Assembly: GCA_017760785.1 (NCBI GenBank)
Contig: GCA_017760785.1_4320.1
Direction: 5' to 3' (one strand)
DNA length: 46,166 bases
Source of the DNA: a phage
The notes beneath the pieces were generated by a model. That model was not told where the DNA came from. It saw only the letters and a list, made by a program, of their open reading frames with translations, and did no database searches. Positions 6,033 to 40,110 of the stretch are shown here, in pieces. The stretch's first letter is position 1; every line of letters starts with the position of its first letter. The position numbers and the translations under genes were made by a program.

Positions 6033-6506
6033 ATGATTTACGTATTTGATATCGATGGAACAATAGCTAATAATGAGCATAGAAGTCACCTTCTACCATC
6101 TAGTAACCTTCACCTGACTTCAAGTTGGAGCAATTACAACAGGGCCTGCTGGGGTGATTCCCCAATAATTCCAATGATAAACATGATGAATACGTTAGCC
6201 GACTTATCGCCAGTTTACATCATTACCTCAAGAAGTGACGAAGTTGAATGGATGACGCTTGAGTGGCTTCAGGATAATGATATTGAGTATGATTCTATAT
6301 ACATGAGAAGTCGACATGACAACAGAAAAGATTACAAAATGAAAGAGGAATGGCTTAATGAAATCAGTGGTGGCGATAAAAGCAATGTGGTTATTTTTGA
6401 AGATAACCCACAAGTAATTAAGCACCTAAGAAGTTGCGGATACACCGTTATGGCTGTATGTGAATATGAAAAACTACCTAAAGATTGCGAATCTCACGGA
6501 GAATGA
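6033..6506 (+). CDS. HAD-family phosphatase
   Basis: N-terminal FDIDGT motif; 157 aa. Confidence 0.6.
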   Translation: MIYVFDIDGTIANNEHRSHLLPSSNLHLTSSWSNYNRACWGDSPIIPMINMMNTLADLSPVYIITSRSDEVEWMTLEWLQDNDIEYDSIYMRSRHDNRKDYKMKEEWLNEISGGDKSNVVIFEDNPQVIKHLRSCGYTVMAVCEYEKLPKDCESHGE

Positions 6507-7063
6507 AAATGACTAAATTATTTATACTTAATGGCCCAGCTGGAGTTGGTAAGGACACTATAGCGGATATCATGGTTGAGACCGGTGTAGCCAAAGAAAA
6601 GGTATCATTCAAGTCACCAATGTTTAACGTTGCAAAAGGAATGCTATCAAGCGATGAATTTGATGGATTCATCAAGAATTACGACAATAGAGACTATAAG
6701 GAATCACCTCATGGATTTCTTGTCGGTATGACAGTTCGTGAATTTATGATTTGGATTAGCGAGTCTGTAATGAAGCCAGTCTTTGGTGATGATGTTTTCG
6801 GTAAAAGGCTAGCCCAGTCACTTGGTGATGGTTGCTACATTTGCGCTGACGGTGGATTTGCTAGCGAGATTAAGCCACTGATCGACTCTGGTGTTGAGGT
6901 CACGTTAATCAGATTGCATAGGTCAGAGTACACATTTGATGGCGATAGTCGCTCATACATTCACGGTGTGTGCGCAAGAGAAATTGATGTTCGTGTTATT
7001 AGTGGTGATATTGATGGAACATCAGCATTGGTAAGGCACGTAATAAATAGCACTAATTGCTAA
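6503..7063 (+). CDS. P-loop nucleotide/polynucleotide kinase-like protein
   Basis: Walker A GPAGVGKDT; ATGA overlap with phosphatase stop. Confidence 0.55.
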   Translation: MKMTKLFILNGPAGVGKDTIADIMVETGVAKEKVSFKSPMFNVAKGMLSSDEFDGFIKNYDNRDYKESPHGFLVGMTVREFMIWISESVMKPVFGDDVFGKRLAQSLGDGCYICADGGFASEIKPLIDSGVEVTLIRLHRSEYTFDGDSRSYIHGVCAREIDVRVISGDIDGTSALVRHVINSTNC

Positions 7064-7121: not shown

Positions 7122-7295
7122 ATGACTAAATTATACTGCGTTAAAAACAACTACAAGACGCTGCCATTTACCGTTAACCATCCTTACAATGCGGAGTACC
7201 AGGGTGATGGATATTACAAGATTTACGGCGACGATATGACGCACATCTTAGCGCCAATTGATGGTTCTTTGGTTGAATTTATTATCGCAGACTAG
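7122..7295 (+). CDS. hypothetical 57-aa protein
   Basis: hand-translated ORF; motif promoter upstream, terminator downstream. Confidence 0.45.
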   Translation: MTKLYCVKNNYKTLPFTVNHPYNAEYQGDGYYKIYGDDMTHILAPIDGSLVEFIIAD

Positions 7296-7318: not shown

Positions 7319-7347
7319 AGCGGGGGGCCTTTTGGCCCCCCTTTTTA
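7319..7347 (+). terminator. rho-independent terminator
   Basis: GGGGGGCC/GGCCCCCC stem, TTTT loop, T-run. Confidence 0.7.
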
Positions 7348-7413
7348 TGCTTCTTTTCCGAGCAGTGCTAATGTATCATTCTTTTACTAACTTAAACATT
7401 GACAAATACATAA

Positions 7414-7641
7414 ATGGAGGATCACATGAGGGAAGTAATCAATGCTGCTACGGCGTCAACTGGAGGGGCAGCGGTAACTGGTGCGGCAACTGGTCAGATG
7501 ACCATAGCGATAATCAGCCTTATCGCTTTAATCATTTTTGGTGCCTGGGGCGCTTACTGGAAGTTCAAAGATAGCCAGGCGATTCGAAGAGCGCTTGAAT
7601 CGGGAGACTTGAAAACAGCAATCAATATAAGGAGCAAATAA
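7414..7641 (+). CDS. holin, pinholin-like, possible dual start
   Basis: two Met three codons apart (7414, 7426); weak Gly/Ala-rich TMD1 plus hydrophobic TMD2; directly precedes endolysin. Confidence 0.6.
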   Translation: MEDHMREVINAATASTGGAAVTGAATGQMTIAIISLIALIIFGAWGAYWKFKDSQAIRRALESGDLKTAINIRSK

Positions 7642-8127
7642 ATGAAGCAGAAGCTGCTAATTAGCGCGGCTACGGCTGCGGCAATATACATCGCAGCTCC
7701 GCTTATTGAGCTCGTTGAGGGTGTGGAGAACAAGCCTTACATGGACATTGCCGGAATCCCTACAGTTTGTTCCGGTATTACCGGTCCAGATGTGGTCTGG
7801 GGTAAAACGTACAGCAACAGGGAATGCCGGAACCTGCTGGAGAAGCACATCAAGATTCATGCTAAGTATGTTCAGGATGCTGTAACCTACCCAATTGCAC
7901 CGCAGACAAGGGCGGCGTTAATCAGCTTTAGCTACAATGTTGGTGGTTCAGCGATGAGGAAATCAACTGCCGTTAAGTTAATTAACCAGGGTAAGATTGA
8001 GCGGGGTTGCAAGGCTCTCGGTATGTGGACAAAGGCTACAGTTAATGGCAGGAAGGTTGTCGTTAAGGGTTTAGTAAATCGCAGGAATGAGGAGATTAAG
8101 TTATGTTTAAGCGGATTGCAGCGTTAG
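7642..8127 (+). CDS. SAR endolysin, T4-lysozyme family
   Basis: N-terminal Ala/Gly-rich signal-anchor; catalytic E-x8-D-x5-T spacing. Confidence 0.75.
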   Translation: MKQKLLISAATAAAIYIAAPLIELVEGVENKPYMDIAGIPTVCSGITGPDVVWGKTYSNRECRNLLEKHIKIHAKYVQDAVTYPIAPQTRAALISFSYNVGGSAMRKSTAVKLINQGKIERGCKALGMWTKATVNGRKVVVKGLVNRRNEEIKLCLSGLQR

Positions 8128-8492
8128 TAATGTGCGTAGCTTTGTCTGGATGCTCAGCAACATCCGCACTGACCGGATTAATTGGCAGTAAGCCAGAGGT
8201 TAGCGCCCAGGCTGGCGCCGAGAACAATAAGGTTGGTGTTGGGTTAACGAACAAGTTTGACTCCAGCAACTCCAGTGAAGCCACGGTTAAAGATTCTAAG
8301 GTTGGGTCACTGGATAGCTCGAGCGGAAAAAAGACTGCTGACAACTCGATTAAGGCCTCAAGAATCACTGCCGAAAAGATTGAAATTACCAATAACGAAT
8401 CATCCGCGCTTCCGTGGGTTGGAACGGGAGCTATGGGGTTGCTGGTTTTAATTCTCATGGCATTAATCTTAAGACGTAAAAAAGCCTCCTAA
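8103..8492 (+). CDS. unimolecular spanin-like lipoprotein
   Basis: N-terminal lipobox LSGC plus C-terminal TMD and basic tail; overlaps endolysin end. Confidence 0.6.
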   Translation: MFKRIAALVMCVALSGCSATSALTGLIGSKPEVSAQAGAENNKVGVGLTNKFDSSNSSEATVKDSKVGSLDSSSGKKTADNSIKASRITAEKIEITNNESSALPWVGTGAMGLLVLILMALILRRKKAS

Positions 8493-8510
8493 TGGAGGCT
8501 ATATTTTTAG
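8480..8510. terminator. bidirectional terminator between spanin and minus-strand block
   Basis: AGCCTCC-TAAT-GGAGGCT with A-run before and T-run after. Confidence 0.65.
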
Positions 8511-8842
8511 CTAAATAACTCGTCGTCAGTCATTCCTCCTATATTCATCATCTCTTTTATGTACTTGCTTTGATACCCGTTAAGTGACTCAAAGCTAAAC
8601 TCAAATGGCCTCTTCAAGCTCCCCTTGCTAACAAACTCGCCGCACTTACCATCAATATATCCTGCAGTAAGCATCTTCGCGCAAAACTCCTTTGATGCAG
8701 CGCTGCAAAACTCTCTATGCGATAACCCTGCAGCTTTGCTGAATCTCTGAGAATCCTTGTGTTGGTAGATGAATCGCGCCAAATGCTGGCGCCTAAAGTA
8801 ACTAAAACTTTCACAGAACTTAAATATATCGAGCAGGAACAT
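8507..8842 (-). CDS. hypothetical protein
   Basis: 111-aa ORF downstream of ATPase gene on same strand. Confidence 0.45.
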   Translation of the reverse strand: MFLLDIFKFCESFSYFRRQHLARFIYQHKDSQRFSKAAGLSHREFCSAASKEFCAKMLTAGYIDGKCGEFVSKGSLKRPFEFSFESLNGYQSKYIKEMMNIGGMTDDELFS

Positions 8843-12492: not shown

Positions 12493-12720
12493 TTCGTTAG
12501 ATTTATGGATTGTTGCAGATATTGAAATGATTAACATGATTATTGCACATATAGTAATATTGCTTCCGATGCAATGATTTTTTTGATTGTTGCGAAAAGT
12601 GAAATAAAGTGGTGAGTGAGTGAATGAAAGATGGATGGACTACCATACAAGTTGATTTTGATTCTGTCCGAGCCGCTTTGCGTATACGCGTTATGAAAGT
12701 TATGCCGTGTAGATAAACCT

Positions 12721-13020
12721 TTCCGCGGAAATTCATCCACGCCGTACCACGCCAGGTTACGCCATAGTTACACTATAATATCTATATATAACAACCTCTT
12801 AGTATTATTATTATTATTATAAATATTACTATGTATATCATGTAACCAATATGCCGGAGGGGGTCGATAGTTTTTTCTATGAAAATGACAATTTCTATAT
12901 ATATAAGGATAGGTGTATACCCTCCGCGTTTTCCGCGGAAATTCATCTACAGGCAAATTACACGAGCTATAGCTGGGCTGGCACGCCAAAAAACGTAACC
13001 AGCGCCAATATAAACACAAG
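12721..13020. repeat. AT-rich divergent control element, copy 1
   Basis: 17-bp direct repeat TTCCGCGGAAATTCATC at 12721 and 12931; (TAT)6 at 12803-12820; ~70 percent identical to 39790-40110. Confidence 0.7.
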
Positions 13021-17330: not shown

Positions 17331-17408
17331 GCTCCGCTAGCTCAATGGGATAGCAGCAACGACCTTCTAAGTCGTAGGTTGCTGGTTCGAATCCAGTGCG
17401 GAGCGCCA
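17331..17408 (+). tRNA. tRNA-Arg (anticodon TCT)
   Basis: acceptor stem GCTCCGC/GCGGAGC, anticodon stem ACGAC/GTCGT with loop CTTCTAA, T-loop TTCGAAT, 3' GCCA; D-arm atypical. Confidence 0.7.
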
Positions 17409-39751: not shown

Positions 39752-39789
39752 TTGCATACACGTAACCGTTGTAACTAGATGTATACAAT

Positions 39790-40110
39790 CTCATCCGCGG
39801 AAAATGATATACGCGATATTACGCCAATTTACGCATTGGTTACATTAAAATATCTATATATATCAACACTTTACTCTTATTATTATTATTATATATATTA
39901 CTGTGTATATCATGTAACTACTTCTATAGAGTGTTCCGGTTATAATTTTCTAATATGTACATTTATACAGTATCTAGCGACAAGCATACCAATGCACCAA
40001 CCCCCGCGAGAAATGGTATACACTATATACACACTGGTTACATTGAGCTATGCCTCGGATGGGATGCCAAAAAGCGTAACTAACGCCAATATCTACACAT
40101 AATTACAATG
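39790..40110. repeat. AT-rich divergent control element, copy 2
   Basis: shares ATATCTATATATA, (TAT)5 at 39878-39892, TATTACTGTGTATATCATGTAAC and GCCAAAAAGCGTAAC...CGCCAATAT blocks with copy 1. Confidence 0.7.

What the first reader, a model, noticed from the sequence alone, without database searches (positions are those of the whole stretch)
7414..8492. Lysis cassette reads as pinholin, SAR endolysin and unimolecular spanin
The endolysin (7642-8127) begins with a weakly hydrophobic Ala/Gly-rich segment (LLISAATAAAIYIAAPLI) typical of signal-anchor-release endolysins, and has E-x8-D-x5-T catalytic spacing. The holin (7414-7641) has a matching weakly hydrophobic first TMD and two candidate starts (MEDHM). 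The third gene encodes a lipoprotein with a C-terminal TMD, the unimolecular spanin design described for phage T1.
Basis: partly seen in the sequence, partly recalled or inferred. Interest (0 to 1): 0.35.

Follow-up and report, generated by a model that had tools for sequence, protein, structure and literature searches.

The report
Known T1-type phage lysis cassette

Summary
The three ORFs exist exactly as described, in an Rtp-like Drexlerviridae coliphage. All three are homologous to phage T1 gp13, gp12 and gp11 (56%, 45% and 38% identity). The spanin is 95% identical to phage Rtp's, which is already listed in the published T1 gp11 u-spanin family. That paper also classifies those cassettes as pinholin + SAR endolysin + u-spanin.

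- **Endolysin:** its best solved relatives are the phage 21 SAR endolysin R21 and RrrD. It has E26-x8-D35-x5-T41, an Ala-rich (not Gly-rich) N-terminal segment about as hydrophobic as RrrD's SAR domain, no Cys there, and a conserved Pro that blocks the only well-placed signal-peptidase site. A 2026 preprint reports azide-sensitive, holin-independent lysis for a near-identical ortholog.
- **Spanin:** LSGC lipobox, C-terminal TMD, no periplasmic Cys.
- **Holin:** "pinholin" stays a prediction. There is no similarity to S21, and T1's record says "single TMD". Its first segment is nevertheless as weakly hydrophobic as S21's TMD1.
- **Dual start (MEDHM):** not supported. The first ATG lies inside the Shine-Dalgarno sequence, has none of its own, is not conserved, and adds acidic rather than basic residues.

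Verdict: correct and already known, so low interest.

The parts
7122..7295 (+). 57-aa DUF7244 (SH3-clan) protein, homolog of T1 gp14. A 2026 paper proposes it as an accessory component of the lysis module; its function is untested.
   Evidence: Pfam DUF7244 4.9e-28, full length. 42% identity to T1 ST14. PMC13164509.
7322..7346 (+). Intrinsic terminator (8 G-C pair stem at 7322-7341, then TTTTT) separating the upstream genes from the lysis genes.
   Evidence: RNA fold -21.3 kcal/mol, z -2.96. A hairpin plus T-run sits at the same place in 73/73 related loci, with clade-specific but still paired stems.
7374..7379 (+). Candidate -10 hexamer TATCAT of a lysis-cassette promoter (weak -35 TTCTTT at 7351-7356). 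Inferred only.
   Evidence: Recurs 40-52 nt upstream of the holin ATG in several divergent clades. BPROM promoter annotated at the equivalent place in SU57. The strict sigma-70 scan did not call it.
7416..7421 (+). Shine-Dalgarno GGAGGA serving the holin start at 7426. It overlaps the spurious upstream ATG at 7414-7416.
   Evidence: Sequence. SU57 annotates the RBS and a 71-aa holin. An SD is present at this position in all clades.
7426..7641 (+). Holin, 71 aa, T1 gp13 family. It has a weakly hydrophobic Ala/Gly/Thr-rich segment at residues 4-22 (7435-7491), a strongly hydrophobic TMD2 at residues 25-45 (7498-7560) and a basic C-terminal tail. Predicted pinholin.
   Evidence: PHROG 2877 6.5e-37, matching residues 5-75 of the 75-aa form. 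56% identity to T1 gp13. Hydropathy. Gapless 71-aa family alignment.
7642..8127 (+). SAR (signal-anchor-release) endolysin, a GH24 lysozyme of the R21 type. SAR segment is residues 5-22 (7654-7707). Catalytic E26 (7717-7719), D35 (7744-7746), T41 (7762-7764). SD AGGAG at 7630-7634.
   Evidence: Pfam PF00959 1.4e-34. PDB RrrD 4zpu 6e-28 and R21 3hde 3e-27. Hydropathy against RrrD. Family features. Ortholog experiments in bioRxiv 10.64898/2026.09.09.750462.
8103..8492 (+). Unimolecular spanin, T1 gp11 family. Signal peptide with lipobox LSGC (8142-8153; Cys17), 85-aa Cys-free periplasmic domain, C-terminal TMD at residues 106-123 (8418-8471), RRKKAS tail. Overlaps the endolysin gene by 25 nt. 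SD AGGAG at 8090-8094.
   Evidence: PHROG 1804 1.4e-48. 38% identity to T1 gp11 and 95% to Rtp's spanin. Features. Rtp is listed in the T1 u-spanin family.
8483..8508 (.). Two-way intrinsic terminator. The hairpin is 8483-8500 with the spanin stop codon in its loop, a T-run downstream on the + strand, and an A-run at 8477-8482 that gives the T-run for the convergent minus-strand gene (8507-8842).
   Evidence: Folds at -14.1 and -13.8 kcal/mol, z -3.6 and -4.0. A terminator is annotated at the same place in SU57 and T1.

Best explanation
This is the late lysis operon of an Rtp-like (T1-relative, Drexlerviridae) coliphage. It is a compact unit bounded by two intrinsic terminators, with three translationally close-packed genes.

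1. **Holin.** The 71-aa holin (start 7426) accumulates in the inner membrane, anchored by TMD2 with its basic C-terminus in the cytoplasm. Its Ala/Gly/Thr-rich first segment is as weakly hydrophobic as the releasable TMD1 of the phage 21 pinholin. At a programmed time the holin permeabilises and depolarises the membrane.
2. **Endolysin.** It is exported by Sec and held inactive on the periplasmic face by an uncleaved N-terminal signal-anchor (residues 5-22). That anchor ends only 3 residues before the catalytic Glu26. Depolarisation lets the anchor leave the bilayer, and the enzyme refolds into an active T4-type lysozyme, as in R21, with no disulfide switch.
3. **Spanin.** It is lipidated at Cys17 and sorted to the outer membrane (Ser at +2), while its C-terminal TMD stays in the inner membrane, so it spans the periplasm. 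Once the murein is degraded it disrupts the outer membrane, probably by membrane fusion.

**Shown here:** homology, sequence features, conservation and gene layout. **Inferred:** every functional step. These rest on T1 gp11, S21/R21 and one preprint on an ortholog.

My probabilities: u-spanin 0.95; exported and tethered (SAR) endolysin 0.85; small-hole 'pinholin' behaviour of the holin 0.6; functional dual start 0.07.
For: - **Homology to T1:** gp13, gp12, gp11 and gp14 at 56%, 45%, 38% and 42% identity. Family HMM hits.
- **Distribution:** 85 phage records carry the region at 88-92% identity, with annotations such as holin / SAR endolysin / unimolecular spanin.
- **Endolysin fold:** R21 and RrrD are the best solved relatives, and the alignment reaches into the SAR region.
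- **Hydropathy:** endolysin N-segment KD 1.82 against 2.11 for RrrD. Holin segment 1 is 0.91 against 0.68 for EssD TMD1. Holin TMD2 is 2.28 and spanin C-terminal TMD 2.36-2.54.
- **Family-wide conservation in 74 loci:** catalytic triad, Glu at 24-27, basic N-terminus, no Cys in the anchor (one exception), Pro before the Glu in 73/74, lipobox, and 0 periplasmic Cys in 57/57 spanins.
- **Signal peptidase:** the only well-placed site, IAA|P, has Pro at +1, which blocks cleavage (PMC8385771).
- **Ortholog experiments:** an ortholog with the same first 20 residues lyses E. coli when expressed alone, and azide suppresses this.
- **Published classification:** Rtp is in the T1 u-spanin family, whose cassettes are classed as pinholin + SAR endolysin.
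- **Terminators:**
Against: - The holin has no detectable similarity to S21/EssD (E 0.075), no Pfam or NCBIfam holin model, and T1's record calls it single-TMD.
- Only two uncharged residues (G23, Q24) separate the two putative holin TMDs, which is a very tight hairpin.
- SAR endolysins also work with large-hole holins (PMC6116005).
- I found no report of a membrane-release or cleavage assay for any T1-family endolysin. The preprint authors say azide is an indirect test.
- My structure models were too poor to use, and I could not run SignalP, LipoP or TMHMM.
- No convincing sigma-70 promoter was found for the cassette.
Confidence: 0.85

Rival explanations
1. The holin is not an S21-like pinholin. 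Either it is a single-pass N-out/C-in protein whose polar Ala/Gly/Thr-rich N-terminal 24 residues never insert in the membrane, or it forms large, protein-permeable holes. The SAR endolysin would simply not need those holes.
For: - No similarity to S21/EssD.
- T1's RefSeq note says 'single transmembrane domain'.
- Segment 1 has a KD of only 0.49-0.99 across the family and an unfavourable insertion energy (about +6.7 on a scale I recalled from memory).
- Only G-Q separates it from TMD2.
- P1 pairs a SAR endolysin with a canonical holin (PMC6116005).
- Segment 1 is conserved in exact sequence (NAAT..GG....G.ATGQ), more than a mere membrane anchor would need.
Against: - The validated SAR-type TMD1 of S21/EssD scores just as low on the same scales (KD 0.68, +7.2), so low hydrophobicity is what a pinholin TMD1 is expected to show.
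- 15/19 residues are Ala/Gly/Ser/Thr, the classic SAR composition.
- The Young laboratory survey classifies these cassettes as pinholin-encoding.
Confidence: 0.3
2. The endolysin's N-terminus is an ordinary cleavable Sec signal peptide, as turned out to be the case for T4 RI. The enzyme would then be secreted as a soluble periplasmic protein and controlled in some other way.
For: - T4 RI was long mis-assigned as having a SAR domain (PMC8385771).
- Small-x-small motifs exist at residues 12-14.
- The preprint reports that SignalP 6 recognises the first 20 residues as a signal peptide.
- Azide sensitivity shows Sec dependence only, not tethering.
Against: - The sites at 12-14 lie in the middle of the hydrophobic core, only 8-10 residues after Lys4.
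- The only site at the end of the core, A19|P20, has Pro at +1, and that Pro is conserved in 73/74 loci.
- Cleavage would leave 6 or fewer residues before the catalytic Glu26, removing the segment that aligns with the part of R21's SAR region.
- A freely active periplasmic lysozyme would lyse the cell prematurely.
Confidence: 0.08
3. The holin gene has a true dual-start motif: a 75-aa antiholin from ATG 7414 (MEDHM...) and a 71-aa holin from ATG 7426, as in lambda S107/S105 or S21 71/68.
For: - Two in-frame ATGs lie 4 codons apart, with a stop codon just before the first.
- 4 of 11 close relatives keep the ATG and 5 have an in-frame GTG one codon closer.
- A dual start has been proposed for the TLS holin (PMC11447400).
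Against: - ATG 7414 overlaps the SD (aATGGAGGA) of ATG 7426, and nothing SD-like lies upstream of it.
- In other clades the 'upstream start' is whatever the SD happens to spell (GGTGG, GAGGTTG). It is absent in T1-like and several other clades, while the 71-aa start is invariant.
- The PHROG model and the relatives' annotations begin at the second Met.
- Known antiholin extensions add a positive charge (PMC9636201), whereas MEDH adds two acidic residues.
- No conserved RNA structure surrounds the starts.
Confidence: 0.07

Closest known systems
Phage T1 lysis cassette: gp13 holin, gp12 endolysin, gp11 u-spanin (plus gp14 SH3/DUF7244)
   Same: Same gene order and the same four protein families, at 56%, 45%, 38% and 42% identity. 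Shared features: a 71-aa holin, catalytic Glu at 26/27, an identical LSGC lipobox, a terminator before the holin and another after the spanin.
   Different: - Here the endolysin and spanin genes overlap by 25 nt; in T1 they overlap by 1 nt.
- The window's endolysin anchor is more hydrophobic than T1's (KD 1.82 against 1.13).
- T1 has no in-frame start codon near its SD.
- Here, PNK-phosphatase and kinase genes precede the SH3 gene rather than an HNH endonuclease.
Phage Rtp rtp63-65 and other Braunvirinae (SU57, DTL, CEB_EC3a, 12210I, vB-EcoS_57-3)
   Same: 88-92% DNA identity across the cassette. Proteins are 97%, 90% and 95% identical to Rtp's. The annotations are already holin / SAR endolysin / unimolecular spanin. 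57_3Lys has the same first 20 residues and the same E26/D35/T41.
   Different: Only allelic differences. The window as a whole is a distinct genome (87% identity over 69% of its first 25 kb to the nearest record). Rtp has GTG where the window has the upstream ATG.
Phage 21 / DLP12 lysis genes: pinholin S21 (EssD), SAR endolysin R21 (RrrD), Rz/Rz1
   Same: The endolysin is a true homolog (41% identity, E 8e-36 to RrrD; PDB 3hde and 4zpu are the top hits). It has the same triad motif EGV..PY.DI.G..TVC.G.TG and a Cys-free anchor. The holin has the same size (71 aa), the same two-segment hydropathy pattern and the same basic C-tail.
   Different: - The holin is not detectably homologous.
- The anchor-to-Glu linker is 9 residues shorter (Glu26 against Glu35), and R21's Gly-rich stretch is absent.
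- One unimolecular spanin replaces the two-component Rz/Rz1.
- There is no positively charged dual-start extension.
Phage P1 Lyz (class I SAR endolysin, disulfide-regulated)
   Same: N-terminal SAR design and a lysozyme fold.
   Different: There is no cysteine in the window's anchor, so the disulfide-isomerisation switch cannot apply. P1 also uses a canonical holin.

Membership tests
T1 gp11 unimolecular spanin family (Kongari et al. 2018) | N-terminal lipoprotein signal with lipobox [LVI][ASTVI][GAS]C | tested here: met
   LSGC with Cys17. The +2 residue is Ser, which implies outer-membrane sorting. The lipobox is conserved in 57/57 distinct family spanins. LipoP was not available.
T1 gp11 unimolecular spanin family (Kongari et al. 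2018) | C-terminal transmembrane domain with cytoplasmic tail | tested here: met
   Residues 106-123, KD 2.54, followed by RRKKAS. The AF2 model shows a helix at 106-127, its only region with pLDDT around 80.
T1 gp11 unimolecular spanin family (Kongari et al. 2018) | At least 40% identity over at least 40% of length to a family member | tested here: met
   95% identity over 129 aa to Rtp's spanin (L017). RTP is listed in the T1 family in Table 5. Identity to T1 gp11 itself is 38% over 123 aa.
T1 gp11 unimolecular spanin family (Kongari et al. 2018) | No periplasmic cysteine | tested here: met
   0 Cys between Cys17 and the TMD, as in 57/57 relatives.
T1 gp11 unimolecular spanin family (Kongari et al. 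2018) | Periplasmic domain predicted mostly beta-strand | tested here: inconclusive
   The single-sequence AF2 model gave no structure there (pLDDT 44-54). The published table scores the RTP domain (86 aa) at 6% helix and 30% strand.
T1 gp11 unimolecular spanin family (Kongari et al. 2018) | Functions in outer-membrane disruption (complements lambda RzRz1) | not testable with these tools
   Shown only for T1 gp11 (PMC6139136).
Class II (R21-type) SAR endolysin | T4/GH24 lysozyme domain with E-x8-D-x5-T triad | tested here: met
   PF00959 1.4e-34. E26, D35, T41. R21 and RrrD are the top PDB hits.
Class II (R21-type) SAR endolysin | N-terminal weakly hydrophobic, small-residue-rich TMD after basic residues | tested here: met
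   K2 and K4, then an 18-residue segment with 9 of 18 Ala/Ser/Thr. KD 1.82 against 2.11 for RrrD. The feature is conserved across 74 loci.
Class II (R21-type) SAR endolysin | No cysteine in the SAR domain (distinguishes it from the P1 Lyz and Lyz103 classes) | tested here: met
   0 Cys in residues 1-25.
Class II (R21-type) SAR endolysin | Anchor not cleaved by signal peptidase | tested here: inconclusive
   By the -3/-1 rule only IAA|P is well placed, and Pro at +1 blocks it. That Pro is conserved in 73/74 loci. SignalP could not be run and no processing data exist.
Class II (R21-type) SAR endolysin | Sec-dependent export, membrane tethering, release on depolarisation | not testable with these tools
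   Only indirect evidence: azide-sensitive lysis by the ortholog 57_3Lys, in a preprint.
Pinholin (S21-type class II holin) | Two TMDs, N-in/C-in, with TMD1 of SAR character | tested here: inconclusive
   TMD2 is clear (KD 2.28). Segment 1 has KD 0.91 and is 15/19 small residues, comparable to EssD TMD1 at 0.68. But T1's record says single TMD, and the loop is only G-Q.
Pinholin (S21-type class II holin) | Sequence homology to S21 | tested here: not met
   BLASTP E 0.075 over 28 residues against EssD. No Pfam or NCBIfam holin family hit.
Pinholin (S21-type class II holin) | Dual-start antiholin carrying an extra positive charge | tested here: not met
   The upstream ATG lies within the SD, is not conserved, and gives an acidic extension.
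Pinholin (S21-type class II holin) | Encoded next to a SAR endolysin | tested here: met
   The holin stop codon TAA (7639-7641) abuts the endolysin ATG at 7642.
Pinholin (S21-type class II holin) | Forms ~2 nm channels that depolarise the membrane but do not pass folded endolysin | not testable with these tools
   No experimental data found for any T1-family holin.
T1 gp13 holin family (PHROG 2877) | Full-length match to the family profile and to T1 gp13 | tested here: met
   6.5e-37, profile positions 1-71 of 71. 56% identity to gp13. Gapless alignment of 41 distinct members.

The most novel reading that the evidence does not exclude
The T1-family holin may be its own class rather than an S21-like pinholin. 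In this reading it is a single-pass N-out protein, and its strictly conserved Ala/Gly/Thr-rich N-terminal segment (NAAT..GG....G.ATGQ) works in the periplasm or at the membrane surface as a specific interaction or timing element. That element might act together with the adjacent DUF7244/SH3 protein, which would make this a four-component lysis system.
Probability: 0.12. Interest if true: 0.45.

Novelty: already known. Interest (0 to 1): 0.08.

Why it matters
It matters little beyond correct annotation. The cassette belongs to a family catalogued since 2007-2018, and close orthologs are already labelled this way in GenBank. What remains of value is a reminder that two of the three labels (pinholin, SAR endolysin) rest on prediction for the whole T1 family. 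Simple experiments on any member would settle them, and would also test the role of the neighbouring SH3-like gene.

Tried and rejected
- **Structure prediction.** Single-sequence AlphaFold2 of the endolysin (pLDDT 42.6) and the spanin (pLDDT 57.2) was too poor to use, so I made no fold search.
- **RNA switch at the holin start.** CATTGA (7397) can pair with TCAATG (7438) around the SD and ATG. The fold is weak (z -1.65) and the pairing is broken in the closest relatives, so I rejected it as chance.
- **TTGACA at 7399-7404.** It sits 21-22 nt before the holin ATG in several clades. That is too close to be the -35 of the holin mRNA, and it is not a recurring motif elsewhere in the window. It remains unexplained.
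- **Promoter.** The strict sigma-70 scan found no promoter between the terminator and the holin. A relaxed scan gives only a candidate TATCAT -10.
- **NCBIfam.** No model exists for the holin or the SH3 protein.
- **Primary papers not held.** The papers on R21 structure, S21 topology and T1 gp11 localisation, and Young's 2014 review, were unavailable. Those mechanisms are cited through open reviews or from general knowledge.
- **Identity with vB-EcoS_57-3.** I considered that the window might be this phage. The genome length (45,774 against 46,166 bp) and the endolysin mass and pI differ slightly, so it is a close relative and not the same record.
Full report
**1. What is there**

The + strand carries three tightly packed ORFs at exactly the coordinates given:

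| Coordinates | Length | Notes |
|---|---|---|
| 7414/7426-7641 | 75 or 71 aa | holin |
| 7642-8127 | 161 aa | endolysin; its ATG directly follows the holin stop codon TAA |
| 8103-8492 | 129 aa | spanin; overlaps the endolysin gene by 25 nt in another frame |

- Each gene has its own Shine-Dalgarno sequence: GGAGGA at 7416-7421, AGGAG at 7630-7634 and AGGAG at 8090-8094.
- The unit is bracketed by two terminators. A strong hairpin plus T-run lies at 7322-7346 (-21.3 kcal/mol). A two-way terminator lies at 8483-8508, with the spanin stop codon in its loop.

**2. Where it comes from**

- The 1.2-kb region matches 85 phage records at 88-92% identity. All are Rtp-like Drexlerviridae (Braunvirinae) coliphages.
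- Several records already annotate holin / endolysin or 'SAR endolysin' / 'Rz-like' or 'unimolecular spanin'.
- The window as a whole is a distinct genome of this group. It is 87% identical over 69% of its first 25 kb to the nearest record.
- All three proteins, plus the small ORF upstream, are homologs of phage T1 gp13, gp12, gp11 and gp14 (56%, 45%, 38% and 42% identity).

**3. The spanin**

- It has a lipobox LSGC with Cys17, and Ser at +2.
- Its 85-residue periplasmic domain has no cysteine.
- Its C-terminal hydrophobic helix (106-123, KD 2.5) is followed by RRKKAS.
- The same features hold in all 57 distinct relatives extracted from 74 loci.
- It is 95% identical to Rtp's 129-aa spanin. 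Kongari et al. 2018 list that protein in their u-spanin database and in the T1 gp11 family.
- T1 gp11 itself complements lambda RzRz1 mutants (PMC6139136).

Membership in this family is secure. Only the beta-rich fold could not be confirmed here, because the single-sequence model was uninformative.

**4. The endolysin**

- It is a Pfam Phage_lysozyme at 1.4e-34.
- Its best solved relatives are RrrD (4zpu, 6e-28) and phage 21 R (3hde, 3e-27). The alignment extends into the N-terminal anchor.
- The catalytic residues are E26, D35 and T41, within the R21-like motif EGV..PY.DI.G..TVC.G.TG.
- Residues 5-22 (LLISAATAAAIYIAAPLI) follow K2 and K4. This segment has 7 Ala and no Gly, and scores KD 1.82 against 2.11 for RrrD's validated SAR domain.
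- The design is family-wide: basic N-terminus, a ~16-18-residue small-residue-rich segment, then Glu at 24-27. There is no Cys in the anchor, with one exception.

The main alternative is a cleavable signal peptide, as T4 RI turned out to have (PMC8385771). That is unlikely here for two reasons:
- The only small-x-small site at the end of the hydrophobic core is IAA|P. Pro at +1 blocks signal peptidase, and that Pro is conserved in 73/74 loci.
- Cleavage would remove the segment that aligns with R21's refolding SAR region.

A September 2026 preprint on the related phage vB-EcoS_57-3 describes endolysin 57_3Lys:
- It is 161 aa, has the same first 20 residues and the same E26/D35/T41.
- The authors class it as a 'class II SAR endolysin'.
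- They report lysis on expression of the endolysin alone, suppressed by the SecA inhibitor azide in a dose-dependent way.
- The window's protein is a close ortholog, not the identical one (17.57 kDa, pI 9.83 against 17.55 kDa, pI 9.7).

The window's anchor-to-Glu distance is 9 residues shorter than in R21. When the enzyme is tethered, the catalytic Glu therefore sits essentially at the membrane surface. This mechanistic point is my inference.

**5. The holin**

- It matches PHROG 2877 ('holin') at 6.5e-37, and the match starts at residue 5 of the 75-aa form.
- Forty-one distinct homologs align without a single gap, and all are 71 aa.
- TMD2 (residues 25-45) is strongly hydrophobic (KD 2.28), and the C-tail is net basic.
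- Segment 1 (residues 4-22) is 15/19 Ala/Gly/Ser/Thr, with KD 0.91 (family range 0.49-0.99).
- That is about as weakly hydrophobic as the experimentally established, releasable TMD1 of S21, measured on its DLP12 copy EssD (KD 0.68).

The pinholin reading is therefore reasonable, and it is also what the literature assumes. It is not demonstrated, for these reasons:
- There is no sequence similarity to S21, and no Pfam or NCBIfam holin model hits it.
- T1's record states 'single transmembrane domain'.
- The two segments are separated only by G-Q.
- SAR endolysins can work with large-hole holins.
- Segment 1 is conserved in exact sequence, at least as well as TMD2. That suggests a specific role beyond anchoring.

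**6. The 'two candidate starts'**

- ATG 7414 is the first three bases of aATGGAGGA, that is, it lies inside the SD for ATG 7426. A stop codon directly precedes it, and nothing SD-like lies upstream.
- In 75 loci (50 distinct) the 71-aa start is invariant. An in-frame upstream start exists only where the SD happens to spell one (ATGGAGG, GGTGG, GAGGTTG). It is absent in T1-like and several other clades.
- Known dual-start antiholins add a positive charge (PMC9636201). MEDH adds Glu and Asp.
- No conserved RNA structure surrounds the site.

I rate a functional dual start at about 7%.

**7.

- The 57-aa ORF at 7122-7295 is a full-length DUF7244 (SH3 clan; 4.9e-28). A 2026 paper proposes this protein as an accessory part of the Drexlerviridae lysis module.
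- A terminator lies between it and the holin in 73/73 loci. Its stems covary between clades. The three lysis genes therefore form their own unit and need a promoter within the ~80 nt spacer.
- The best candidate is a TATCAT -10 at 7374-7379 with a weak -35. It recurs in divergent clades, and BPROM placed a promoter there in SU57. This remains tentative.

**8. Verdict**

The dual-start idea is not supported, and 'pinholin' remains a prediction. Novelty: already known. Interest: low.

Noticed in passing
window 7122-7295 (+): A 57-aa full-length DUF7244 (SH3-clan) protein lies immediately upstream of the lysis genes. It is a homolog of T1 gp14. A 2026 paper proposes it as an accessory lysis-module component. 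Here it follows PNK-phosphatase (6033-6506) and kinase/ATPase (6509-7063) genes.
   Followed up: partly
window 7322-7346 (+); equivalent positions in L013-L085 and T1 (L003 6782-6808): An intrinsic terminator between the SH3 gene and the holin is present in 73/73 related loci. The stem sequences differ between clades but stay paired. It is not annotated in the T1 RefSeq record. It implies the lysis genes form a separate transcription unit or need read-through.
   Followed up: partly
window 7351-7379 (+): Candidate lysis promoter: a -10-like TATCAT (7374-7379), often preceded by CTAATG, with a weak -35. It recurs 40-52 nt before the holin start in several divergent clades and coincides with a BPROM call in SU57.
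   Followed up: partly
window 7399-7404 (+): A perfect TTGACA sits 21 nt before the holin ATG. It is conserved at 21-22 nt in several otherwise divergent clades (L020, L055-57, L081). It is too close to the start codon to be the -35 of the holin mRNA, and the spacing is not repeated at other genes in the window. It remains unexplained.
   Followed up: partly
L028-L039 (T1-like) and L040-L084 (Klebsiella-phage clade), -30 to +27 around the holin ATG: In these clades, but not in the window, the holin Shine-Dalgarno is predicted to pair with nearby sequence. In T1-likes CTCACT pairs with GGTGAG. In the Klebsiella-phage clade GAGGTTGC pairs with codons 8-9 (-9 to -11 kcal/mol). This may be translational damping of the holin.
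   Followed up: no
window 8483-8508 and 8507-8842 (-): The spanin gene and a convergent 111-aa minus-strand ORF with no Pfam match share one two-way terminator. The spanin stop codon lies in the hairpin loop.
   Followed up: partly
window 17331-17408 (+): A single tRNA-Arg (anticodon TCT), also found in the related phages (12210I, vB-EcoS_57-3).
   Followed up: no
window 12708-12846 and 39780-39918: A 139-nt direct repeat at 79% identity, with copies 27 kb apart. I did not examine what it is.
   Followed up: no
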